A stretch of DNA of 20,000 nucleotides from positions 174,449-194,448 of the forward strand of contig JALGPX010000002.1 in assembly GCA_023515795.1 (NCBI GenBank), read 5' to 3'. The stretch is from Amoeboaphelidium occidentale. Lineage: Eukaryota. Each line of letters starts with the position of its first letter. Position 1 is the first letter of the stretch. Made by a program: the position numbers and the translations under genes. Of the stretch, positions 386 to 20,000 are shown piece by piece. A model generated the notes under the pieces. It worked only from the letters and a program-made list of their open reading frames with translations. It searched no databases and was not told where the DNA came from.

Positions 386-2340
386 TCATTTAGATTTACA
401 AGTAATATCTTTGCATAATTCAATCAATAAATTCCATAATTCTGCTTCTTTCAAGTAATATCCTGTCCAGCAGGAGAGAATTTCATTCAGTAGTCTGAAG
501 TGCATGATGCCTTTTGACGAGCTGCGTTTCAGAATGATATCTTTACGAACGTGCCTTGCTAAATATTCATCGCATTCTTTCAACGGTACAGCATGAACAT
601 CATTCTTGTAGAGTATGTTAATCCATCCTTCGTTACTGGATTCTGAAGACCATGAAGGCAGTGGAGTAGGATGAGAAGCACCAAACCAAGGCAAAGGATT
701 TGCAATGCTCAAGAAATATTTCAGCTTCAAACCAGAACCTTTCCCAAAGATCTCTGCAGCAGTGGGAATATTCAACTCGTCTTGTAACTTTCCAAGAGCA
801 AGTGCCGATACAAGTGCTCCTGTTGTGTATGCAATTATCATTACTATTGCGCTTGTATTCCGATATTCATTAGATAAGGAATTCAAAACCTTTTGGAATC
901 CATCATGTATCTTAGTTCGAACATAATGCTCCGCCCAATAAGATAATGCTATAGGAAATCTGCATAGAATTTGATGTCGACCATAGGAATAGATGGAACT
1001 TACAGGATCTAATCCTTTCGTGCGAATCTCATTATCCTTCGACATCAATAAATCATATCGAAGAAGGTGTAGATCAAAAGTAATGTTCTTTTTTGAAGCC
1101 TTCGCTAGCTGTTCCATACTACTACTCAAACCAATTTTTACTTGCTCGATTTCGGAATCGATTTGAGAAGCAGTAGACATTCCATGCACATACACAAAGA
1201 CAAAACGTTGTTCTTTTGCGGCACTATCTGAGATGATCGTTCTGGTATAAACTTTTTCAATCGAAACTGCTTCCTCATCTTTATCCCAAGGTGAAACAGG
1301 CGATCGAAGCATAGGGACTTTTTCATTGAAGTCCATGTTTTCCTTTATCTCAGAGGCCATAGTTTTGTACACATCATCATCGTAGAAATACATAAAATGA
1401 CTAAACGGTGTTATTCGCCCTATGAAAATCAGCAAGAACGTCACCATACTTTTGAATAGCCCAAACAGCACTTGAATAACCGAAAACACACTCACAGACT
1501 TCAGCTTCTTGGTATATTGCGTGATCTCGTTCATATCTGGCATGAATCCAAACTCAACATCTTTCACATGAGCAACTTCCTCACCTTGAACGCTAATACC
1601 ACTCGAGAGAATATCAGAAGTGTAATGAATATTAGTCCAAGGTATCTGAACTTTCCTATGAAATGGCCTAATAGGATGATGCCAATTGACAGCACAACCA
1701 AGGGTGATCAACAGCTTGAACTGTTGCAACAACAAACGCCCTTCCAAAGTGAAACCATCTTGACACTCTGATTGCAAATAATTAGTTAAAAATTCCACAC
1801 CCAGCGTAGCACCCATGCTAAAACCAACCAAAACAAAAGAAATATCATCATCATCGCTACTTTGAGAAGAGTCTTGCATCATTTCCTGTCCAAGTTCGTT
1901 CACAGTTTCAATAACATGATGAAACATATCCTGNNNNNNNNNNNNNNNNNNNNCAAAACAAAAGAAATATCATCATCATCGGTACTTTGAGAAGAGTCTT
2001 GCATCATTTCCTGTCCAAGTTCGTTCACAGTTTCAATAACATGATGAAACATATCCTGTCGAACGCTCTCCGAACCCCAAAACGAAAGGCCCATATTCAG
2101 AACCCTTAAAGGAAGCATTCTAAGGATTGTTTTCCAGTCTAGCCAACTGTACTTGAGTCTTTTACACATTTTTAACTGACGGTCCTCATGCAAGCGAGCA
2201 TAATTAACATACTTCACAACAACCTTCAGGTCTGAGCCTTCAAACTCTTTTCTTATTTGCTTCTCAAAGTGCTTATTAACAATATCAACCTGATCAGCAA
2301 AGCTTAGTCCGTGCAAGAACAAAACACCAATCTGTTTCAT
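386..2340 (-). CDS. Protein with two tandem alpha/beta-hydrolase-like domains; one gene split by an assembly gap
   Basis: ATG at 2340 (MKQIGVLFLHGL). ORFs 1900-2352 and 386-1927 join once the 105-bp duplicate around the N gap is collapsed. Domain 1: LHG, GFSMG, WTNIHYTSD, SHFMYF. Domain 2: VHG, AYTTG, NPLPWF, WINILYKND, WTGYY. Confidence 0.7.
1829..2058. repeat. 105-bp duplicate across a 20-N gap (1829-1933 and 1954-2058); contig-overlap artefact
   Basis: Copies are identical except C1857/G1982 and abut Ns at 1934-1953. Confidence 0.9.
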
Positions 2341-2712: not shown

Positions 2713-4509
2713 ATGAATCAACGGCTACCGAAAGAAGGGTTATTGGAATTCTTGCGCAAATTGAAACCAGAACCATCTGATCTAATTGAAGAATTGAACG
2801 CTGATTATGAGTTTACCGTTGGTAAGTGGATAGAGCGCTCAGAAGAAGGCTGGTTGCGACGCTATCCAAACTACGGAGACGACATCTACAATCACATCAA
2901 GGCAAAAATAGGACGACAAGCAGGCTCCGTTCCACCTGATAGTATCGCTCTGGCTGCTGGTATACCACATAACGGATATCTCTTGAGAACTGCTGTTTCT
3001 GCATTAGATCCCGATACAAATGAAGGTGTCCCTGGGACATTCAATACACAAAGAAAGGAACTAGTTGATAGTATTTTACATCTTATGGAACGTAAAGGAT
3101 TGTTCTACATCAGGGCGCCTCCATTCTGCGGGAAAACGGGCCTTTGTCAATTGTTATGCATGCGACTACTCGAAGCCGAGCCTGGTGCCGCTGTTTTACA
3201 TATTAGATGTAATGAATTGGATGAAGGTGAAAGCTTTCGCGAATTTTTCAAAAGAAAGTACAAATGCGCGTGGGAGGATTTTGTGGAACAACCATTCAAA
3301 AAGTATTTGTTGTTGGATGAAGGGCAGTGCACATATGCTGATATCTGGCTGTGGAAAACGCTGTGCAAGAATCAGTTATCACGGATTGAAAAAGGCCTGC
3401 ACTTACTAGTAGCGTCCGCCTATGGTAGCTTTGACTCACTCAGGGCACGAAGGCGTTCCGGAACCCCAATACAAATTCCTGCCCAGAACATGTTTGAGTT
3501 AAAAGATCTTATTTTAAAGAGAACAGAGTTTAATGAGATGGTTTCTGGGAGTCGTTTTGAACAACATTCTGATATAATTTGGCAAGCTTGTGGTGCTCAT
3601 ATAGGTGTAGCTTCAAGAATCTTAATCACGCTTAATCACAACCGCCGGCCTAATGAACAATTTACTCCTAATTACATTGCTAACTGGTTATACTCTGATA
3701 GTATGATCCGCTCGTTGCCTGCACAAAGAGGTTTTATCGATATGCCAGCAGTCGAAACTATCAAAACGATTTATGAGATTTCTGATGCGGCATACTCGCG
3801 AATGCTTAATGTTTTACGAGAGGTAGCTGAAGGCAAAGACGTCCCTACTAAGGATCCTGATCGGTCGCCTGGAAGCAAAGAAGCCGTGACCATTTTGCTG
3901 AAGCATGGGTTTCTATTCGACACATCGGAAGGATTTCTGACATTCGCTTCCAATGCGCACTTGAATTTCTGGTTGGCTTCCTTTCGCACTGATAGCAGCA
4001 TTTGGTTCTTTGATTCTGGTGACATCGTATCATTTGTAGTCGAATCCGTTTCCCGTATGAGCAGGAAGCTATTATCTGACGTTGTTAAAGAAAATCATGG
4101 TCGTAGTCGTGAGAGACAAATCCATGCTGTTTACTATAATGCGGTAACTTCTTTAGTTCCCAAGAAGCACCGAGTGGTTACCGAATGGCAAACTACCGAC
4201 CGTGATGGTTATGTTGACATAGTGATAAGGATCAGCGACTCCGATTTATGGTTCCTGGAGTTGTTGGTTGATGGAGAGCGAGCCCAGCAGCACAATGACC
4301 GCTTTGAATCTTATGGTAATTATTCAAAAGATGTCCAGGCTTACGGTGGAAAGTATGCTCTGATTGATTTTCGCTTAACTACCCGTATTAAAAAAAGAAG
4401 GACGGATTTCGTTTATGTTACGTTTTCAGAGAATTACAAGAATGCGACAATACAGTATGGCACATCTGAATCTAACTCTTCCACCATTACAAGAGAATTG
4501 AATGAATAG
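2713..4509 (+). CDS. Crinkler/RHS-like (CR) protein: short helical header + P-loop NTPase + PD-(D/E)XK restriction-endonuclease-like domain, 598 aa, intronless
   Basis: Walker A APPFCGKT, Walker B LLLDEGQ, ASAYGS...GTP; C-terminal ERQIH...GYVDIVI...WFLELLVDG...H..RF...YALIDFR, typical of fungal CR-NTPase+REase proteins. Confidence 0.8.
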   Translation: MNQRLPKEGLLEFLRKLKPEPSDLIEELNADYEFTVGKWIERSEEGWLRRYPNYGDDIYNHIKAKIGRQAGSVPPDSIALAAGIPHNGYLLRTAVSALDPDTNEGVPGTFNTQRKELVDSILHLMERKGLFYIRAPPFCGKTGLCQLLCMRLLEAEPGAAVLHIRCNELDEGESFREFFKRKYKCAWEDFVEQPFKKYLLLDEGQCTYADIWLWKTLCKNQLSRIEKGLHLLVASAYGSFDSLRARRRSGTPIQIPAQNMFELKDLILKRTEFNEMVSGSRFEQHSDIIWQACGAHIGVASRILITLNHNRRPNEQFTPNYIANWLYSDSMIRSLPAQRGFIDMPAVETIKTIYEISDAAYSRMLNVLREVAEGKDVPTKDPDRSPGSKEAVTILLKHGFLFDTSEGFLTFASNAHLNFWLASFRTDSSIWFFDSGDIVSFVVESVSRMSRKLLSDVVKENHGRSRERQIHAVYYNAVTSLVPKKHRVVTEWQTTDRDGYVDIVIRISDSDLWFLELLVDGERAQQHNDRFESYGNYSKDVQAYGGKYALIDFRLTTRIKKRRTDFVYVTFSENYKNATIQYGTSESNSSTITRELNE

Positions 4510-4722
4510 TAATAAAGAAATATCCAAATGCCATAAACGAAAAGAAACTGACCGATCAAAGACTCTCGCAACACTTGCATGAGAGAACTACATAGAGGGC
4601 TACGGTAATAAGATCTTAAGCTCTATCTGACTACATTTTTTTGAAGTATCAGATGGTAAAGGTTGAATGGCAACTTGGGTGACCGGCGAATCAACGGAGA
4701 ACACCAACAAGGGCATTTATTG

Positions 4723-4848
4723 AAGCGTACAAGACGCAGCAAAATATCGCGTATAAAGACGGAAGTACCTCATTGCGCTTTAAGCAAGCAGTGGACCCAG
4801 CATCTCTGTGGGGCCAAGACCTTTTGCTAAATCATTTGGAGCACCAAA
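4723..4848. repeat. Direct repeat copy 2; the last codons, stop and 3' UTR of the 4780-5568 gene
   Basis: Matches 2386-2511; on the minus strand it encodes FGAPNDLAKGLGPTEMLGPLLA* plus 3' UTR. Confidence 0.95.
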
Positions 4849-5568
4849 CATTTCTTTCAAACTTTTCACACTGAAGTAACTCACGCTCTTGTCTTCTTTC
4901 CGAGGATCATTTGGTGTTTTAACAATATCAAATAATACACCATAACGATTAGAAGTAGAACTGTTGTACCAGTCAGCACGTATTGTGTCCTTCTTTATGA
5001 TCACCACATCCCCGCGATTGTAAGTAACTTTCTCAAGCTTCTTAGTGCTCTTGTTGAACACCACCAAAGTACTTTCTGATTCCAGACCACCGAATACTAC
5101 ATAACCTGCCCTTTTTACGCTGTCACTGTGAAGTCTTTCAGCAAGAGTGCCTGGTGCAGACTCTAGATATGTCAGGGTGTGCTCCCAACCTTCTTCTGCT
5201 GGATACAACTCTTTCATTACAGATACCAACTTATCTAACTTGGGGTAAAGACCCTTTCTATAAACGCTTTCTTCAGAAACATTATAGTAACTTCGGCCAT
5301 GTGGAGGTTGAACAACAATGAAATCTTCTTCATATGGAATTGTGTCTCTTAGATTTAACTACCTTTTGTATGTAGACTCGACCATAGTTCTTAATACCTT
5401 CTTAACCACTATGTAATCCTTGTCGTTCTGTTCAAGATCTTCTATCGCAGGTCTTACTATGTGCACCGCTGATCTCGCCTGGCGCTTCCTATCTCTATCG
5501 TACACTCTCAATGCCACAATTTGCTCTGCCGTTTTATTTCTGTAATTTTTTGATACTCTCTTTGACAT
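4780..5568 (-). CDS. DSBH / 2OG-Fe(II) oxygenase-like protein, interrupted by one in-frame TAG (intron or nonsense)
   Basis: ORFs 5359-5577 and 4780-5229 are the same frame, separated only by TAG at 5361-5359. Motifs ESAPG...LHSD and RGDVVIIKKDTIRA resemble the PhyH-like HxD and GD.hhh.GD.hHA motifs; the distal His is replaced by Arg. Confidence 0.5.
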
Positions 5569-6803: not shown

Positions 6804-6912
6804 CCAATAGTGCCCGATGGACTCTTTTAAGAGGACAGAGGGTGTAAAGACATGGACTCGCGTTTTTTTCAGGGGTACGAATGGCGTGATTCTTTTGGTT
6901 CATTTGCTGATG

Positions 6913-7476
6913 GGCGTTCAACTTTTAGGTTTCGAATAGATTTCATATTTTCATATACAAAGCGTATCTGTTGCATCCTTAGGTAGATCTATTTGTTTCT
7001 TATACTTTCCATTCTTAACTATCTTCTTTCATCTTGCCGTTTCAAGTAGCGCGGCGTGAAGGGCGCAGAAGAACCTAGGCAAATTTACCAGAGCAGTTGA
7101 TTTTTTACATTTAAAAGTGACTGCTGATATCAAATCGTCCGTGTTCTGTAAACAGTGATCATCTATCTCCGGTTTTCGCTTTCTACNTGATTTTGTGATT
7201 GGCGTTCAACTTTTAGGTTTCGAATAGATTTCATATTTTCATATACAAAGTGTATCTGTTGCATCCTTAGGTAGATCTATTTGTTTCTTATACTTTCCAT
7301 TCTTAACTATCTTCTTTCATCTTGCCGTTTCAAGTAGCGCGGCGTGAAGGACGCAGAAGAAAACAAAGCAAAACTTATCAGCACTGCTGATTTTTTACAT
7401 TTAAAAGTGACTGCTGATATCAAATCGTCCGTGTTCTGTAAACAGTGATCATCTATCTCCGGTTTTCGCTTTCTAC
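6913..7476. repeat. About 275-bp near-duplicate across a single N (6913-7186 and 7201-7476); probably two haplotypes
   Basis: Near-identical copies with one divergent patch (about 7062-7097 vs 7350-7387) and N at 7187. Confidence 0.85.
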
Positions 7477-9705: not shown

Positions 9706-10907
9706 ATGAAATAAATGGGGGATTTTCACTTAAAATTTTTTTGTGATATGCAAACTTTTTGCAAAATCGAGCTCACGAAGTTCGAGTTAGCTGGTCAGCG
9801 AGTCCGAGTTAGCTCCTCACGCGAGAAAACGTAATAAAAACACTCGGAAAAGTCCTCTTACCTTCTTTTATTGTTTCTATCGGGCTAACGGTCGATTAAA
9901 ATTATGATATTGCACAATGAACAGCCGTTCAAAGTCACGATTTCGCTGATACTACAGCCCTGAGACGTAACTGGTGACTTGGAACTTCAGATATGCTCCG
10001 ATTTATCAGGCTGAGCTGTTTCAAGGTCATATTGGAGAGATCGAATGTTCTGTGTGGAGTACACGCTATTGGAACCCGACTATAATTTGAAACTCTTTGT
10101 GAAGCCTTGTTTCAGTGAATGTTTCAGGCAAGGACATGCAAGGATGAGAGTGTAATTGGTGTAAAGATGAGTTCTGGTGCCTTTTCATACTCTTTATTGA
10201 TAGGTTGTTTGAATGCGTCTCCGATTTACTGCGTAGAATAGGAAATGGATCAGATCTCCCTTAGGCCAATTTCTACAGATTTTGTCCTAAGAGAAATCTT
10301 TCGATTGGATATATAGAGATTGGAAATTAATGAAACCACTACAGCACGCCCACTACAGGAGTAGCAGGCATTAATGCAAGATGATTTCGACGCACTTTGT
10401 TCAGGGTATGCATGACATTTAAGCTTGAAACTCTTTATTGAATAGATTCTCATTGCATTGCATTCCCCAAAGTACTGTCATTAGCCAGTAAATCAATTGA
10501 AACTTAGTCTTTCGTATTCAATGTAGTCAATTGCACTTCTCGAGTCTCATTTAACCCGCTCTCTAACTTCACGCTCTCCGTCTGACAGATGAAACCAAAT
10601 ACCACCGGATCTTGGTGAAGACGAAATGCGACAAGCGAATACGTTCCGATTCGTCCATTTGGATTAAGTTATAGACATTGACAGACTTGGCACGAAGAAT
10701 GTCTACATTTTCTGTTGGACTCTTTCAGTGATCAGTTTAGCGATTAGGTCAAATATCACACCTCAACACCACTTTAAATTGAATCAACAAGGCTAGTGTA
10801 ACCGGCTTTGAAACGCAAATAAATATCATATTCGTACGTTTCTATCATGCGTCTTTCCTGCTATAGCTTGTTTGGGTGATCTTCGGTTTCAGGCTTGTTT
10901 TGTAACA

Positions 10908-13060
10908 ATGCCTAAAAGGAAGAAAAAGAAAGAGCCGGAAATGGCTTTTAGTACCGTAATCCCTTCTCTAGAAAGTGCCACGGTTGTTTCAATTGATGCT
11001 GCTGATGTTGCTCGTGTGAATGATGAAAGTCCCGAGGAGACCTCTACAAAACGTTGCAAGTCATGCGGTGGGACGGACCATCAAAGAGTTTCGTCATAGA
11101 AAAGCGCCAATTACAAACCTCCAGTTAACATGAGAAGCGTAGATGCGTCCTATGAGTATGCGACGTCTACAATCAAGTTTGGCCTGTTAAAGAATGTCAA
11201 GTCTCAAGATTTTCAAATGAAACTGAAACGTTATGTTGAAAGGATGAACTTAATTAGGATTCATGCATCAAACCTATTTAACTTGTACTTGATAGATATG
11301 TTGGCTGCTGGAAAAAGTATTGGGCTTGTTACAACAGGAAAAGATGGAACCCTGTGCAATTTTTTTGTTGCGGCTACTTGACGCACAAAAGACGTGCATT
11401 CAAATAGTCTGGAGGGTGACTTGGAAAGAATAGTTAGCGATTATGCTTCAATGCTGAAACAGGTTGGTTTTGAATTGCCCAATGGAGACGGGTTGTCACA
11501 ATCAATGGTGCATCTGGCTGGAGAATATGAAACAAGATGCAAAACTTTCGTTTCAACTACTTTGCTCGGCAGAATAGCACGCTGGTTGAAGTTTTTGTTA
11601 GAAACGGCATTGCCAGAGGTGTTCGTGAGCATGGCGCGCAGTAAAAGCGCTGCTGGTTATTTGATAGCTATGTTCATATATGAAATGTCTGATGATCCTA
11701 AAAAAACAAGAACCAACGTTGGCCAAGAAAGTGGTTGAATATTGCAAGAATTACAGTTCGATTGGGTTAATGGGTACAGCATTGGAGCAAGTGTATTGCG
11801 TTTTGAAGCAAAAAAACAGCGGTCATAAGGCTGAGTCTAGAAAAGTTAAAGATCAAGACGAATTGGCACCATTACTTGACGCTACTCTACAAAATTTTGG
11901 ACTTCTTTAGAAACCATCAAAATGAAGATGCTGCTTTCCGCGTTGAAACTCAGCAAAGAGGTAGGCGGCTTAGAACATTTACATTGGCGCCCATCTATCA
12001 AAACCGTAACGGATACGTCAACATTGACACTTCTTGCCTATTTGAAGTGTAACAATTCGAAAAAGAAGACCGACGCGACTGGGGTTTTCCTTTTGATAAG
12101 GACTTGATAGAAAAAGGAAAAACAACACGACAGTACTTTATGGAAACAGCAGAAGCTCGCTGGGGAGAAACAGTTGAGATGAAGCCTTGGTTACCCAAAT
12201 GAATGACATTTGGGTATTCGATGGTAACTGATGGCGTTTCGGTTGAATTTCATGTCATGAAAAAAATCCATGATGGGGACAAAGGTCCCGATGATTTTGG
12301 TTTGAATATGGTGGACGACAAGAAATTTTATGTTCCGGTTGATTTAAAAGATACTGTTGTCATTGGCTTAGACCCTGGGAGGAAAGATTTGTTTGATGCG
12401 TATGATGAAAATGGGTCTTTTGGTTGTTCTGGGGGAGAATGGAGACGATTGTCTGGTATTGAATTCTCTGCGAAGAACGAAAGTTTAGGTTGAGTAAACG
12501 GACTGATATCGGTAAAATCAATGCCGATATGCCTTCTGCAAAGGTAGCCACAGTCCTTGAGTTCAAACAATATTTGAGTTACTTTGCAAAAAATTTGAAT
12601 ACTTCAGTGTCTTTTTACGGATCTCACCAGTGGCGTCTTTCTAAGAAGAACGTGTGACATTCATAAACAATGGGCTTATGATCATTTGATCAAGCGTATC
12701 AAAAGAAGGGGAAAGAAAGTCTTTGTTGCTTTTGGTGGTGGCAAGTTTTCTAGTTGTTCACGTGGTCACGCTCCAATTCCGAAGGTTGGCTTTTACAAAG
12801 CGTTGAAACAAAGAAAGATTCCGTGTAGATACGTTTGGGAATACAATACCAGCAAGATTTGCGCTAAATGTTTCACTGTTCTACCAAAAGGAAGGAAATG
12901 GCGTCTGAAGATTTGCTCGAAGATTACTTGTGGCAGATACTGGAACAGAGACGTGAACGCTGCAAAAGACATGAAGTTCGTATTTACTTTCATGAACAAG
13001 AACAACGGAGAAAGACCAGAACAATTCAAACCAAAACCTACAGAAGCAGGAACAAAATAA
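10908..13060 (+). pseudogene. Fanzor1 (eukaryotic TnpB-family RNA-guided RuvC nuclease), inactivated
   Basis: Stitched frames give PKRKKKK (NLS-like), CKSCGGTDH (Zn knuckle), STIKFGL, WHHYLTLLYKIL, FTLAP...YVNIDT, TDGVSV, RuvC-I IGLDPGRKDL (D 12371), AFGGGKF, RuvC-II WEYNTSKICAKC (E 12839), RuvC-III WNRDVNAA (D 12950). In-frame stops at 11097, 11379, 12050, 12200; frameshifts near 11700, 11760-11860, 12478, 12650. Confidence 0.92.
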
Positions 13061-13264
13061 CAACAACAAAACCGAGGTAACAGAGGGACGCAAGTCCGCT
13101 CAAGACCACAATAGGGACCATGTTACGAACGTTACCTCTGATGTTGATGTAGTTACGGTTGCGTGACTACATTGACTGTTCGTATGTTGAGTCAATTAAA
13201 AGTGAAACGGGAGTCAGATTTACGAGTCTCTTTTGCGTTCTTTCTGATTGAAATCAACAATAAT
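13061..13264 (+). ncRNA. Candidate Fanzor omegaRNA scaffold / element right end
   Basis: Lies directly 3' of the Fanzor stop. Hand-derived stems: 13074-13081/13131-13138; 13147-13157/13162-13172; TTGACT/AGTCAA; 13081-13094/13232-13246; terminal TGAT-TGAA-ATCA. Confidence 0.65.
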
Positions 13265-13295
13265 AGAACCGCAGGACGTTTCTTTGCAACGAAAT

Positions 13296-13407
13296 ATGAC
13301 AGAATTTCCCAAACTTCAAAATGACACCATTTTAAGAGTAATTAAAGGCCAAAAGGTTGAGCAGACCCCGGCATGGATTATGCGCCAGGCTGGTCGTTAT
13401 TTACCGG
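13296..13407 (+). CDS. HEM12: Uroporphyrinogen decarboxylase, first exon only (cut off at N 13433)
   Basis: [37 protein letters not shown] carries the URO-D signature [11 protein letters not shown], followed by a GTAATT donor at 13408. Confidence 0.9.
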
Positions 13408-13433
13408 GTAATTTGAAATTGAAGTCAGGAGCN

Positions 13434-13570
13434 AACGTTACCTCTGATGTTGATGTAGTTACGGTTGCGTGACTACGTTGACTGTTCGTATGTTGAGTCA
13501 ATTAAAAGTGAAACGGGAGTCAGATTTACGAGTCTCTTTTGCGTTCTTTTTGATTGAAATCAACAATAAT
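13434..13570 (+). repeat. Second copy of the Fanzor right end / omegaRNA 3' part (copy 1 at 13128-13264)
   Basis: 137 bp with 2 substitutions (A13171/G13477, C13244/T13550). Starts right after the N and has a different 3' flank. Confidence 0.95.
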
Positions 13571-13577
13571 TCTTCCA

Positions 13578-14741
13578 ATGGCTTCAGCAAAGCGCAAATC
13601 GAAATGGGACGCATTCGATGACGACGCGGAAGAGGAAACGCAGAGCTCCAAACTGACAAGAAAGCCAAAGAAGAGCAAGGAACTTAAGTCCGCGGAGAAG
13701 GCATTAAGCATAGGAAGCGTGTTACAAGCACAACAGTTTCCGGTAGAAAACATAACAAAGACCTCTGATTATTCTCATGTTCAAGAGGTATCAACGGAGT
13801 TCGATTACCTTTCGCAACCTACCAAAGGATTATTTATAAGATCATGTTCTGATGTTACGGAAGAATACGATATCGTTTGCTTAATTCAGGAAGGAACCTT
13901 TGGTGCTGTTTACAAGGCAAAACATCGAGAAACTGGTCAAATAATGGCTTTAAAGAAGATCAAGGATGATGCTAATGAACAGAATGGGTTCCCATTGACA
14001 GCTTTACGTGAAATTACTGCATTGCAACGATTGCAGCACCAAAATGTTGTAACCCTGAGTGAAATCTTGTCTGAAACTGAACAGGATTTGGGAACTATTC
14101 GTTTCTATTTGGCTATGGAATATTTTCCTTATGAGTTGAGGCAATGGGTTCGAGAAAAGATGCCAAAGCTCGATGAAACAGCCTCCAAGTTGCTATTTCG
14201 GCAAGTTCTTCAAGGTCTAGAATTCTTACATTCAAACTATTACATTCACAGAGACATCAAACCTACTAATATTCTTGTTACGGAAGAAGGCACGGTTAAA
14301 TTGGCAGATTTTGGATATGTCAAAAACTACGAAGTTCCAATTAAAGACATGACACCATCTGTAACAACACTTTGGTATCGTGCTCCTGAAATACTATTTG
14401 GTAAAACAGATTATACAGAGAAGATTGATATATTTTCTGCTGGCTGTGTGTATGCTGACATACTTCGTGGTGGCATGCCGCTGTTTGAAGGACAGTCTGA
14501 GATTGACCAAATTAGACAAATATTCACTGTACTTGGAACTCCTTCGGAAAGAGTACTCGCTAAGTATCCTAATGGAACCGATTTTAATTTTACAAAGTAT
14601 TCGTGCACTTTGAAGGATCGGTTACAGGTAGATGTGTCTGATGAATGTCTAGAGTTTCTCATGCTACTTTTGGAGCCAGATTACGACACAAGGCTTTCAG
14701 CGAAGGAAGCCCTGATGCGCCCTTACTTGCAGCTTAAATAA
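13578..14741 (+). CDS. Cyclin-dependent kinase, CDK10/CDK11 (PITSLRE)-like
   Basis: EGTFGAVYKA, ALKK, GFPLTALREI, HRDIKPTN, DFG, TLWYRAPEILFG; first ATG at 13578. Confidence 0.88.
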   Translation: MASAKRKSKWDAFDDDAEEETQSSKLTRKPKKSKELKSAEKALSIGSVLQAQQFPVENITKTSDYSHVQEVSTEFDYLSQPTKGLFIRSCSDVTEEYDIVCLIQEGTFGAVYKAKHRETGQIMALKKIKDDANEQNGFPLTALREITALQRLQHQNVVTLSEILSETEQDLGTIRFYLAMEYFPYELRQWVREKMPKLDETASKLLFRQVLQGLEFLHSNYYIHRDIKPTNILVTEEGTVKLADFGYVKNYEVPIKDMTPSVTTLWYRAPEILFGKTDYTEKIDIFSAGCVYADILRGGMPLFEGQSEIDQIRQIFTVLGTPSERVLAKYPNGTDFNFTKYSCTLKDRLQVDVSDECLEFLMLLLEPDYDTRLSAKEALMRPYLQLK

Positions 14742-17800: not shown

Positions 17801-17993
17801 AAGTCTAGGTGCCCCATCGTTCAGGCCAGATTCGCTTAAAGAGGCAGTAAGGTTTGCCAAAAGAGAAGGACTTCTAGGTTTGATGGTCAATAACAAACAC
17901 ATCGAAAAGATACCTATACTATCCCGAACTATCAAAGAGTCTGGCTTGGTATTGTCATTTACTGAAGATGGTCATACTTCAAGCATTCTGTGA
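14814..17993 (+). CDS. PHO81: SPX + ankyrin repeats + degenerate GDPD protein (phosphate-pathway CDK inhibitor Pho81/NUC-2)
   Basis: SPX motifs MKFGK...YMNYKALKK...FVELNETGFRKILKKWDKRSK; ankyrin repeats (GRRPLHYAA, GWTPLFY); LPPPMIPVYGHNYLD and GTYWKS motifs of Pho81/NUC-2; GDPD-like C-terminus. An extra 3' exon cannot be excluded. Confidence 0.88.
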   Translation: MKFGKFISSNAIPEWSTQYMNYKALKKIIGVAENKPEKHQLTVAAQSVSMSPDSNAALTVDGSPIPHSFEGAKTHFFFRMERELEKVNAFYLRKEAELRSRLKSLVEKKSLLLSRKGKSYGSVSLISLRDALNDFQHDLSKLLRFVELNETGFRKILKKWDKRSKMHTKELYLSRQIEVQPCFNRDILNEIGDLASVALHELAALDSNGGNVPLLREVHESEDANYNAASVENEQENALLRALAIGGSVSLLKDLIPKVDIETVNRVFWKLCSRNDTSEDSVDILQEHFKIEFNYSDDVSDKTCVHNAASSGNLVLLKKCAIGGGSIKTQDMYGRRPLHYAAMNGHYDCCKYLLDCGAVAMDEALSPSKMADSIDHDGFSPLLYAIIQGHENVVALLLESGAVLSSGVYSRNVPLCLACEYGHVKITELLLKQGVLLSVANDSGLYPIHLACKEGHVEILKLLSSQSAFAAEIDRRDKYNGWTPLFYCASEGYLECAKILVDKGCTTFVLDETNWTPWSYSLWNGHVQTAAFLESSITVEQRNEVGSPSKLRMESLDEALPPLSLDAGVASDSELPSLSLPPPMIPVYGHNYLDRKAAIYVYLGNVQSPLKSAVSFYNTKQLSVSLNISCHSKNGAISGIPYIVILPSEENNEVYKFTFDDPKECSINFAILPSFGSKAIGKAFVLVKDALMHLHDVSYNSNTVSTNGRFSTTLPIIDFRSKVVGEIAVELFVVMPFSHPMMDIGQVGTYWKSSHVVQSFSPAPPIGSPAMKTLGRRLITSPKKTNSAAGNSVSLASLVVATSLCPKNAHLVVQVTKDMIPIVCPDLFIAENGLKLSVSQLSFQQLKEAQVGRESMSEKVHDIGSYVNEVYSNIMTLRDALDYSMDLNDGVQIEIKYPFYNKKDVPIVGVSLNEAVDATLSVVFDYLSRCASLDSDSKRSILFSSGNPLVCMAVNMKQPNFPVFYQCCCGFKIDDDFVPVEELDKRKRKTGLHSLGSLGAPSFRPDSLKEAVRFAKREGLLGLMVNNKHIEKIPILSRTIKESGLVLSFTEDGHTSSIL

Positions 17994-18109
17994 GCTTTAA
18001 CTTTATAAAACGAAATAGACTTTATCGCGCAGAGCTCCAGCTCAAGCGTCTACATGCTGCGAGCTGGAGTGCGAATGCGCTTTCTTAAAGGGGGTATATC
18101 TATCTCAAT

Positions 18110-18215
18110 CAAAATCCTGCAATATCATTGGCCAATTCGTCAAAATCCAGCGATATCATTGGCTGATTTGATCGTTCAAGGTGACATGTGTGTACAAACA
18201 CTCAAATATCATTGG
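18110..18215 (+). repeat. Two imperfect 31-bp tandem repeats plus a third ATATCATTGG core
   Basis: CAAAATCCTGCAATATCATTGGCCAATTCGT (18110-18140), CAAAATCCAGCGATATCATTGGCTGATTTGA (18141-18171), AATATCATTGG (18205-18215). Confidence 0.8.
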
Positions 18216-18575
18216 ATCTTGAAATCTAATTGTTTTTGAAGCAACTTGTTTAAACTCTAAAACGTCGTTGCATACATCTCTATTAGATCATTTGGTTGAC
18301 TCTTCAGTTCTGTTTCGAAGTATTCGCTCTCCTTTGAACCCATTTGCTGCAAAGATCGCAAATCGCGGAGAATTTTAAGAGAATAGAATATCATTCTGCG
18401 AAGTAACCAGAAGCTTAATCGTAGAATACAAATAGTTTTGCTCCCCGTGAGATATTCTACACTTCATTCCCAAGCTTTCGGTTGCGCTGTCGCCGATCAG
18501 AGAATGTTTTCGCTTTTTTACGAAAATTGTCATTTAACTCACTCGTCTACTACTACTACAAAATATAATAATTCA

Positions 18576-20000
18576 ATGGGCATTAAAGGGTTTAGTGCTT
18601 TTGCCAAGAAACATCAGCTGTTATCTGAGACCATCAATCTCCAAGAGTTCAATGAATTATATAAGAATCACAGGATCTTTGTGGATCTCTATGGCAGTTT
18701 CTATGATCTTATTCGTTATTATGTATTGGATGACAAGTATGAGGCTCTAGTCACTATTTTCAGCAAAATGTCTAGTGATCTAGACGTAACGTTCGTTATC
18801 GATGGCAGCCGGTCCGCTGAGAAGCATAAAACCCATGCTGCAAGAGATCAGCAACGCTTTCTTAAACTGCACTCATTTCAGGACATTATTCATTCTTTTG
18901 ATCCACAGAATAATGTTTCCAAGTCAAAGTGGCGCTCAATGGAAAAGTTCAGATATTCTTGCTTTAGAATTACAGAGCATCACACGAAACAACTATTTCG
19001 CGCACTTGAATCGGCTAATTTGCCAGTAATTCTCGCAAAGTTTGAAGCGGATGTTGAGATCGGGCGTCTAGTTGCGAAATTAAAATCGAATGAGTTATCA
19101 AATACAATAGTTGTTTCTTCGGATTCCGATCTGGTATTTTATGGATGCTCTGTTGTTGCAAAGCCTTTTTTCATGAACAAGTTTGATTGGAAATCTTTGC
19201 GTTTTACTCTCTTTCGAAAAACAATTGCACTTAAAAAGATTGGAATAACCGAAGAGTGTTGGAACGCTTTGGCAGTTGTTGCGGGGAACGATTACGTTTC
19301 CAATTTGAGGGGATTCGGCATTGCGAGATGTTTGAAGGAATTTCAAAAAATTAATGAAAATGGCGCTTGCACTGCTGAAGAAATGGTGGAAACATTTGAG
19401 CAATCGCACGATAAAAAAAGGTCATTTTCAGATTGCCAGTGCAGTGTTTTTGAATTATCAAGAGACAAGTTGTGCGGTCTGTGTTGAAAGTCTTCAAGAG
19501 CAAATGTTTAAAGATTGCTGTAGTCAACTTCAGCTTTTAAAAGAAAAGTACAGAGCTGCCCGCGCCGCAAAGCGTCAAACCACTCAAGGAAGGTCTTTGC
19601 AAGAGCTGAAACATTTAAAATTTCCTTCTCGAAAGAATGCGTTTAGCCCCGTGGTTCATACTCAACTCGGGCGTTATAAAGTGAAAAAGATCGCAAAAAT
19701 TAAATTAACACAATCTGATGTGACTTCGGCTGAAACAATTGCTGGCCCTGTTTCTGTACAATCTTCAACAAGAAAGAAATCTACCAGGAGACAAGGGACG
19801 AAAAAGAAGAAGAAAGCTAGATACTTGAAGTCAGCAAAGCAAACTAGGACCAAGCCTTCTTTAAACCCACATGGTAAACACAAATTGGCTCAAACTACTG
19901 TAGACATGTGCACTCTTAAAAAACAATATCAGATTAAATCATGGCAGCTGGGAACTTTGCGAAGCCAAATCAAGAAGTCTTCCTTGGATACTGAAATTCA
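18576..20000 (+). CDS. PIN (XPG/FEN1-like) nuclease domain protein with long basic extension; frameshift at A7 19413-19419; 3'-truncated by window; candidate PIN-Fanzor fusion
   Basis: MGIKGF, IFVDLYGSFY, FVIDG...EKHKTH..R, FEADVEIG, VSSDSDL, GNDYVSNLRGFG (H3TH). Removing one A gives a frame open to 20000 (KGHFQIASAVFLNYQET...TKKKKKAR...IKSWQLGTLRSQIKKS). Confidence 0.75.

What the first reader, a model, noticed from the sequence alone, without database searches (positions are those of the whole stretch)
13061..13264. Structured 200-nt tail after the Fanzor stop: candidate omegaRNA with pairing-compatible variation
By hand: an 11-bp hairpin 13147-13172, an 8-bp GAGGTAAC/GTTACCTC pair, a TTGACT/AGTCAA hairpin, a 14-bp long-range stem (13081-13094 with 13232-13246) that would be pseudoknotted with the 8-bp pair, and a small terminal TGAT-TGAA-ATCA hairpin. 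Both differences between the two copies turn Watson-Crick pairs into G-U pairs (U13148-A13171 to U-G; G13083-C13244 to G-U). This fits selection on RNA structure, though two transitions are weak evidence. TnpB/Fanzor omegaRNAs are known to derive from the element right end, with the guide read from flanking DNA.
Basis: partly seen in the sequence, partly recalled or inferred. Interest (0 to 1): 0.75.

Follow-up and report, generated by a model that had tools for sequence, protein, structure and literature searches.

The report
Guide-RNA tail of dead aphelid Fanzor
This stretch is the shared right end of a broken, multi-copy jumping gene whose RNA-guided DNA cutter (Fanzor1) is already catalogued in this algal parasite; it is predicted to fold strongly and likely encodes the cutter's guide-RNA scaffold, an ordinary design, and its copies show no sign of current selection on the fold.

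Summary
The tail is real. It follows the stop of a broken Fanzor1 gene whose annotated C-terminal piece is identical to an Amoeboaphelidium occidentale protein already listed as FZ1 by Saito 2023. It folds well on the sense strand only (z -3.95 against -1.56). Six right-end junctions in four sequencing runs share sequence to 13262, not 13264, and one relative holds the empty site. The long-range 'pseudoknot' stem, the TTGACT hairpin and the terminal hairpin do not (pair probability 0.00). 'Pairing-compatible variation' fails on a larger sample: of 22 changes, 11 break a pair, 6 keep it and 5 are unpaired, against 10.4, 5.0 and 6.6 expected, with no compensatory pair. A more distant Fanzor keeps 21 nt of the 5' tail and a 7-bp hairpin. 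Best reading: the omegaRNA scaffold of a decaying family; expression is untested. The scan has noted such tails on other DNA. This is a new member of a known kind.

The parts
10908..13060 (+). Fanzor1 pseudogene with in-frame stops and frameshifts; RuvC-I D (GLDPG), rearranged E (WEYNTS), C4 zinc finger and RuvC-III D (NRD) are still readable
   Evidence: Translation; Pfam PF07282 E 1.6e-8; frameshifts relative to other copies at 11700, 12475, 12641; annotated piece 12203-13060 identical to P0004 = KAI3662498.1, FZ1
13061..13262 (+). Non-coding right-end tail, candidate omegaRNA scaffold of about 190-200 nt; its 5' end is unknown
   Evidence: z -3.95; shared by all six junctions
13074..13138 (+). 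P1: 8-bp stem 13074-81/13131-38 closing a three-way junction
   Evidence: Pair probability 0.98-0.99
13083..13101 (+).
   Evidence: Probability 0.99; kept with a shifted bulge in a more distant Fanzor (tables 5 and 7, read by eye)
13104..13119 (+). P3: 4-bp hairpin present in the other copies and broken in the window copy by changes at 13117 and 13118
13143..13176 (+).
   Evidence: z -7.7 for 13140-13180; probability 0.99
13185..13259 (+). P5: long interrupted terminal stem capped by a UACG-loop hairpin (13216-13229), ending three bases before the shared end
   Evidence: Outer helices probability 0.96-0.98, inner 0.5-0.6; z -2.6
13261..13262 (+). TA present in all six junctions and in the empty site; likely target-site bases, so the element proper would end at 13260
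   Evidence: tables 7 and 8 (X4 contig 19)
13263..13277 (+). Copy-specific flank, the inferred guide of copy 1
   Evidence: Position by analogy with PMC10432273 (14-15 nt past the conserved end); not shown as RNA
13296..13407 (+). Exon 1 of a host uroporphyrinogen decarboxylase gene, 33 nt after the element end; the gene is cut off by the N join
   Evidence: PF01208 E 3e-10; spacing
13433..13433 (.). Single-N scaffold join between two different insertion loci
   Evidence: the 15,830-nt X1 contig is laid only on 13214-13432 (table 8)
13434..13568 (+). Last 135 nt of a second copy's right end, 9 nt before the ATG of a protein kinase gene (13578-14741)

Best explanation
The stretch is the shared right end of a multi-copy, broken Fanzor1 transposon of an aphelid, and it likely encodes the omegaRNA scaffold, predicted to fold into five stems without a pseudoknot. 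Inferred mechanism: a transcript running through the Fanzor gene and about 15 nt past the element end would be trimmed to an RNA whose scaffold binds Fanzor1. Its last bases, copied from flanking DNA, would guide a cut at the empty allele beside an AT-rich motif that includes the TA, and repair from the occupied allele would keep or spread the element. Shown: the gene family, the broken gene, the shared end, the variable flanks and one empty site. Predicted: the fold. Inferred: transcription, processing, binding, guide and cutting. The window copy cannot make the protein, and the sampled copies appear to drift.
For: A profile of 34 relatives hits SpuFz1 (3e-41), GtFz1 (4e-31) and PpFz1 (1e-30) over long stretches, but ApmFz2 only at the zinc finger (8e-11). 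The window's own annotated protein is listed as FZ1 in Saito 2023 supplementary file 3. Folding is specific to the sense strand and stronger with RNA than DNA parameters (z -3.95, -1.56, -2.78), and the four stems checked survive adding 150 nt of coding sequence. 6 of 6 junctions share the tail to 13262 and then differ; the terminal stem ends at 13259. A more divergent Fanzor on contigs of X2, X3 and X4 still matches 13076-13096 (at the 80% threshold), although about 100 nt before it does not align; the next five letters (GCCTC, X3) close the same 7-bp GNRA hairpin with the bulge moved by one base. Three solved Fanzor1 RNAs have a 7-bp first stem (PMC11423790 section 5).
Against: There is no selection signal among close copies. 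Of 22 changes, 11 break a pair, 6 keep it and 5 are unpaired (expected 10.4, 5.0, 6.6; P(break<=obs) 0.71). Mean energy cost is 1.78 against 1.21 kcal/mol for random changes, and no pair changed on both sides in one copy. The pair 13150-13169 is broken in two different ways. Tail divergence from relatives (4/128, 5/129, 5/124, 6/90, 13/222) is like that of the catalytic half of the gene (33/652, 47/815) but also like that of a host gene (5/172), so it does not show constraint. At about 190-200 nt the tail is longer than the three solved Fanzor1 RNAs (75-150 nt), so only part of it may be scaffold. Two other repeat-like regions of this window fold about as well (z -3.6 and -3.3). The cross-family match rests on one short piece read by eye.
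Confidence: 0.75

Rival explanations
1. The fold serves as a DNA or replication signal for the carrier transposon (a Helitron2- or Crypton-like end without inverted termini) and is not, or not only, a guide scaffold.
For: No terminal inverted repeat and no target-site duplication longer than 6 nt was found upstream in the window. Fanzor1 genes ride in Helitron2 and in unclassified elements without inverted repeats (PMC3627910 passages and section 12). The tail also folds as DNA (z -2.78). In the empty site a run of four T ends at the insertion point.
Against: The stems use many G-U pairs and GNRA/UNCG-type loops and favour one strand. No transposase was recognised upstream (0 of 6 frames matched Pfam). 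The two roles are not exclusive, and the missing left end may be due to the scaffold join.
Confidence: 0.12
2. Only part of the tail is the mature scaffold, either the 5' three-way junction with P4 or the 3' part P4-P5 (about 120 nt); the rest is 3' untranslated or precursor sequence.
For: Known Fanzor1 RNAs are 75-150 nt, and the part beyond the first stem is variable. 13140-13264 alone folds with z -4.8.
Against: The piece kept in the more distant Fanzor is at the 5' side (13076-13096), which argues that the RNA starts near 13074-13083. This rival is a variant of the best explanation rather than an alternative to it.
Confidence: 0.3
3. The folding is incidental and the second copy an assembly duplication, so there is no functional RNA.
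For: The second copy begins at an N, and the two other N joins of the window are also flanked by duplicates. Variation is neutral. The A13171G letter is not seen in the X1 contig that covers it (contigs drop variants).
Against: The second junction stands on its own contig, and four further junctions occur in three other runs. 0 of 200 shuffles fold as well, and the fold lies exactly between the stop and the element end.
Confidence: 0.1

Closest known systems
SpuFz1 omegaRNA and Spu-1 elements of Spizellomyces punctatus (Saito 2023, PMC10432273; passages and supplementary file 3 rows seen)
   Same: Fanzor1 gene followed by a conserved structured right end and copy-specific flanks; no pseudoknot; best structural-database hit of the family profile.
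   Different: The scaffold is 75 nt there against about 190-200 nt here. Spu-1 has 30-nt inverted repeats and intact genes; no inverted repeat was found here and this copy is broken.
GtFz1 (150-nt RNA) and PpFz1 (75-nt RNA) (Xu 2024, PMC11423790; abstract, sections 5 and 6 read)
   Same: Multi-stem scaffold with a 7-bp first stem-loop; AT-rich target motif (TTAA for GtFz1).
   Different: Here the 7-bp hairpin is predicted to sit inside a three-way junction closed by an 8-bp stem, and the tail does not overlap the coding sequence as in GtFz1. Correspondence of stems is by analogy only.
Amoeboaphelidium FZ1 entries KAI3662498.1 and KAI3659908.1 (Saito 2023 supplementary file 3; the second also in Yoon 2023, PMC10711439, supplement)
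   Same: The first is letter for letter the annotated piece of this gene; the second is a sister copy whose predicted protein reads on into the tail.
   Different: The rows seen list proteins only; I found no description of their RNA or element ends.
MCi-2 Fanzor1 elements of Mucor circinelloides (Bao and Jurka 2013, PMC3627910; section 12 read)
   Same: No inverted repeats, near-identical 3' regions, and an ATAAT-type sequence at the boundary.
   Different: MCi-2 has 11-12-bp duplications; no such duplication was found for either flank in this window.

Membership tests
Fanzor1 protein | RuvC D - rearranged E - C4 zinc finger - RD motif | tested here: met
   Motifs GLDPG, WEYNTSKIC..C and NRD in translation; D, E, T, S, four C and RD are near-invariant in 34 relatives
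Fanzor1 protein | Closer to Fanzor1 than to Fanzor2/TnpB over its length | tested here: met
   Profile E-values 3e-41, 4e-31 and 1e-30 against 8e-11; labelled FZ1 in the published table
Fanzor1 protein | Intact reading frame able to make a nuclease | tested here: not met
   Stops and at least three frameshifts in the window copy; whether other copies are intact was not resolved
Fanzor omegaRNA | [quoted passage not shown] | tested here: met
   6 of 6 junctions share to 13262 and then differ
Fanzor omegaRNA | Stable multi-stem fold on the sense strand | tested here: met
   Predicted only:
Fanzor omegaRNA | Structure conserved by covariation | tested here: inconclusive
   None among close, decaying copies; one hairpin kept in a more distant Fanzor; no full divergent tails could be fetched
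Fanzor omegaRNA | Expressed as a small RNA ending about 15 nt past the end, and bound by Fanzor | not testable with these tools
   Needs small-RNA or RNP sequencing
Fanzor omegaRNA | Directs cleavage next to a target-adjacent motif | not testable with these tools
   Needs a biochemical assay with an intact family member
TnpB/Fanzor2-type RNA | Pseudoknot between a 5' loop and the bases next to the guide | tested here: not met
Cut-and-paste transposon with inverted termini | Terminal inverted repeats and target-site duplication | tested here: inconclusive
   None found upstream in the window; TA shared with the empty site; left end not located and the scaffold may join different copies

The most novel reading that the evidence does not exclude
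This aphelid family has an unusually long Fanzor1 scaffold with a 5' three-way junction shared between families, and it lands by preference just upstream of host start codons, facing them. Its guides would then match host 5' leaders and start codons, and the tail RNA would run into host genes, so dead copies could act as promoters or RNA-guided regulators of their neighbours. Basis: both ends in the window lie 33 and 9 nt before verified host genes, and 5 of 6 junctions have an ATG within 35 nt. Only two of these are verified genes, I ran no control, and my rough chance level is 40-50% per junction.
Probability: 0.07. Interest if true: 0.7.

Novelty: new member of a known kind. Interest (0 to 1): 0.25.

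Why it matters
If true, it supplies the RNA part and the target bases for a Fanzor1 lineage so far listed only as protein, in aphelids, with a scaffold longer than the three solved Fanzor1 RNAs. That is a usable design for reconstitution and one more data point on how Fanzor1 scaffolds vary. It does not change the known mechanism. It also shows that two wobble-compatible differences between copies are not evidence of selection.

Tried and rejected
No whole genome is held, so all genomic copies could not be aligned and the left end was not located. Rfam gave 1 match at E 0.7 on the other strand, below threshold. No RNA holder was listed among 21 runs; this says nothing on expression. A metagenome protein scan gave 0 relatives among 453 pattern matches. 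Tail patterns: 0 viral hits for the hairpin; 3 metagenome and 1 viral hit for an 18-mer, none beside a Fanzor, so taken as chance; 0 in prokaryote genomes. The 80 viral loci kept (of 138) are 23-29% identical relatives with no tail similarity. A 14-nt piece of the empty site's left flank had 2 matches in the window against 2.96 expected. No Pfam match was found in six frames of 9720-10909, and none of 166 fetched proteins matched there. The forced terminal hairpin was entered one base out of register and is disregarded; one search has the right register. A structure prediction of relative P0025 was still queued at the last collection, so no fold search was run. The bacterial promoter/terminator scan was at chance level and does not apply. 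Saito 2023 supplementary file 2 (a picture PDF) could not be searched and 18 of 38 Amoeboaphelidium rows in file 3 were not paged through; they may bear on what is already described.

Full report
Setting. The window is eukaryotic. Upstream of the finding, 10908-13060 reads as a TnpB-like gene spread over three frames, with internal stops. Contigs of other copies show frameshifts in the window copy at 11700, 12475 and 12641. The C-terminal piece is 100% identical to an Amoeboaphelidium occidentale protein, and five more relatives were found, four from the same species. A profile of 34 relatives matches the three solved Fanzor1 proteins at E 3e-41 to 1e-30 and the Fanzor2 only at 8e-11. Saito 2023 lists this protein (KAI3662498.1) and a sister copy (KAI3659908.1) as FZ1 (supplementary file 3); its gene length of 858 nt equals 12203-13060. 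So the gene is a catalogued but broken Fanzor1.

The fold. 13061-13264 folds at -62.4 kcal/mol, z -3.95, with 0 of 200 shuffles as good. The reverse strand gives -1.56 and DNA parameters give -2.78. It is the lowest raw energy of 768 windows and third after composition correction. A quick 20-shuffle scan of mine gave a weaker -2.7. The predicted structure has five stems: P1 13074-81/13131-38; P2, a 7-bp GCAA-capped hairpin at 13083-13101; P3, a 4-bp hairpin at 13104-13119 in the other copies; P4, 15 bp at 13143-13176; and P5, 13185-13259 with a UACG-capped tip. The folding program cannot form pseudoknots, but the long-range stem needs the same bases as P2 and P5, costs 6.7 kcal/mol when forced, and is matched in length by 12 of 150 shuffles; no extra pairing of five bases exists among unpaired positions. 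Published Fanzor1 RNAs lack a pseudoknot.

The boundary. The second copy begins right after a single N, and the other N joins in this window are also flanked by duplicates, so an artefact had to be excluded. In run X1, which may be the source of the assembly and is then not independent, one 15,830-nt contig carries the first junction and a separate 4,507-nt contig the second. The N therefore joins two real insertion loci. Runs X2 and X4 share two further junctions and X5 has two more. All six agree to 13262; 13263 is shared by 5 of 6 and 13264 by 3 of 6. A 38-kb contig of X4 holds the first site empty and joins the window at 13261, so the TA at 13261-13262 likely belongs to the target, as target bases are part of other Fanzor1 scaffolds (PMC10711439 section 27). 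This rests on one empty site in a relative with 3 differences in 70 nt. No inverted repeat or long duplication was found upstream, and a piece of the empty site's left flank was not found in the window. The upstream element may belong to the second flank rather than the first.

The variation. I pooled 22 single-letter differences: 19 listed, one and the two between the window copies. The tool appears to list differences only when they lie about 31 nt or more from a contig end, so the tail's ends are under-sampled, and contigs drop variants. Against the majority fold, 11 break a pair, 6 keep it and 5 are unpaired; random placement of the same kinds of change gives 10.4, 5.0 and 6.6. The mean energy cost is no lower than random (1.78 against 1.21 kcal/mol). 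No pair is changed on both sides in one copy. Some changes favour the fold: in X5 two G-U pairs of P4 become Watson-Crick, and two adjacent changes re-pair the P5 tip in a shifted register. Others break it, including two in the window copy's P3 and two different breaks of pair 13150-13169. Drift is expected in dead copies, so this removes the argument without refuting the RNA.

Evidence across families. In X2, X3 and X4 a contig of a more divergent Fanzor aligns to the RuvC-III coding stretch, fails to align for about 100 nt, and then matches 13076-13096 at the 80% threshold. In X3 it continues with five letters that close the same 7-bp GNRA hairpin with the bulge moved by one position (tables 5 and 7). 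This is one short piece read by eye, but it is the best sign of constraint and it favours P2 over the long-range stem. The three solved Fanzor1 RNAs have a 7-bp first stem. Full divergent tails could not be fetched.

Mechanism. By analogy with SpuFz1 and insect-virus Fanzor1s, a transcript would cross the right end by about 15 nt, be trimmed, bind Fanzor1 through the scaffold and use the flank as a guide against the empty allele. Only the anatomy is shown here. The window copy cannot supply protein, though standalone RNA copies are known to work with protein from elsewhere (ghost loci).

What is known. Papers seen: PMC10432273 (passages; supplementary file 3 rows; file 2 unreadable); PMC11423790 (abstract, sections 5 and 6); PMC10530073 (passages; 0 hits for the genus in 2 supplementary files); PMC10711439 (passages, section 27, supplement rows); PMC3627910 (passages, section 12). 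Main-text searches found no paper with both Amoeboaphelidium and Fanzor and one unrelated paper for aphelid transposons (listing only). The names GNRA and UNCG for the loops are recalled knowledge. Earlier notes of this scan report the same design in other genomes, and none on this DNA.

Verdict. Observation partly confirmed; interpretation partly supported. Likely the omegaRNA scaffold (0.75) of a catalogued, decaying Fanzor1 family, with a corrected structure and boundary. New member of a known kind; interest 0.25.

Noticed in passing
window 10190-10430, minus strand: Folds well as RNA (z -3.6), lies in a repeat with about 20 times the single-copy depth in X1 (depth is a rough guide), and is flanked by a 12-nt direct repeat at 10189-10200 and 10430-10441. 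It may be another structured insertion or part of the carrier element; no protein match.
   Followed up: partly
window 18504-20000: An XPG-like nuclease frame (PF00867) continues past a stop into a lysine-rich frame to the window end. Long Amoeboaphelidium FZ1 entries in the published table begin with XPG-like sequence by eye, so this may be the start of a second, different Fanzor1 element.
   Followed up: partly
window 17990-18260: Non-coding stretch upstream of that frame folds with z -3.3 and holds a 31-nt-spaced direct repeat; possibly the left end of that element.
   Followed up: partly
window 13262-13296 and 13568-13578: Both right ends sit just upstream of host start codons (URO-D, protein kinase), facing them; the inferred guide of copy 2 would include the ATG. 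Three of four other junctions have an ATG within 30 letters.
   Followed up: partly
window 13150 and 13169: One base pair is broken in two lineages by changes that would complement each other (G at 13150 in X1, C at 13169 in X2/X4); the G-C form was not seen.
   Followed up: no
window 10700-13260: The window copy differs from other X1 copies by 8-11% in the 5' half (22/202, 20/244) but by 1-2% in the 3' part (3/323, 3/179), suggesting conversion between copies or collapse in assembly.
   Followed up: no
window 1829-2058, 6902-7476, 2379-2514 with 4716-4851: Duplicates flank the other N joins (likely assembly overlaps); a 136-nt direct repeat brackets the 598-aa ORF 2713-4509, which had no Pfam match.
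   Followed up: no
proteins P0017, P0019, P0021: Gene models of a second Fanzor1 family in the same species are tandem or nested repeats of Fanzor pieces, suggesting insertions into or beside earlier copies.
   Followed up: no
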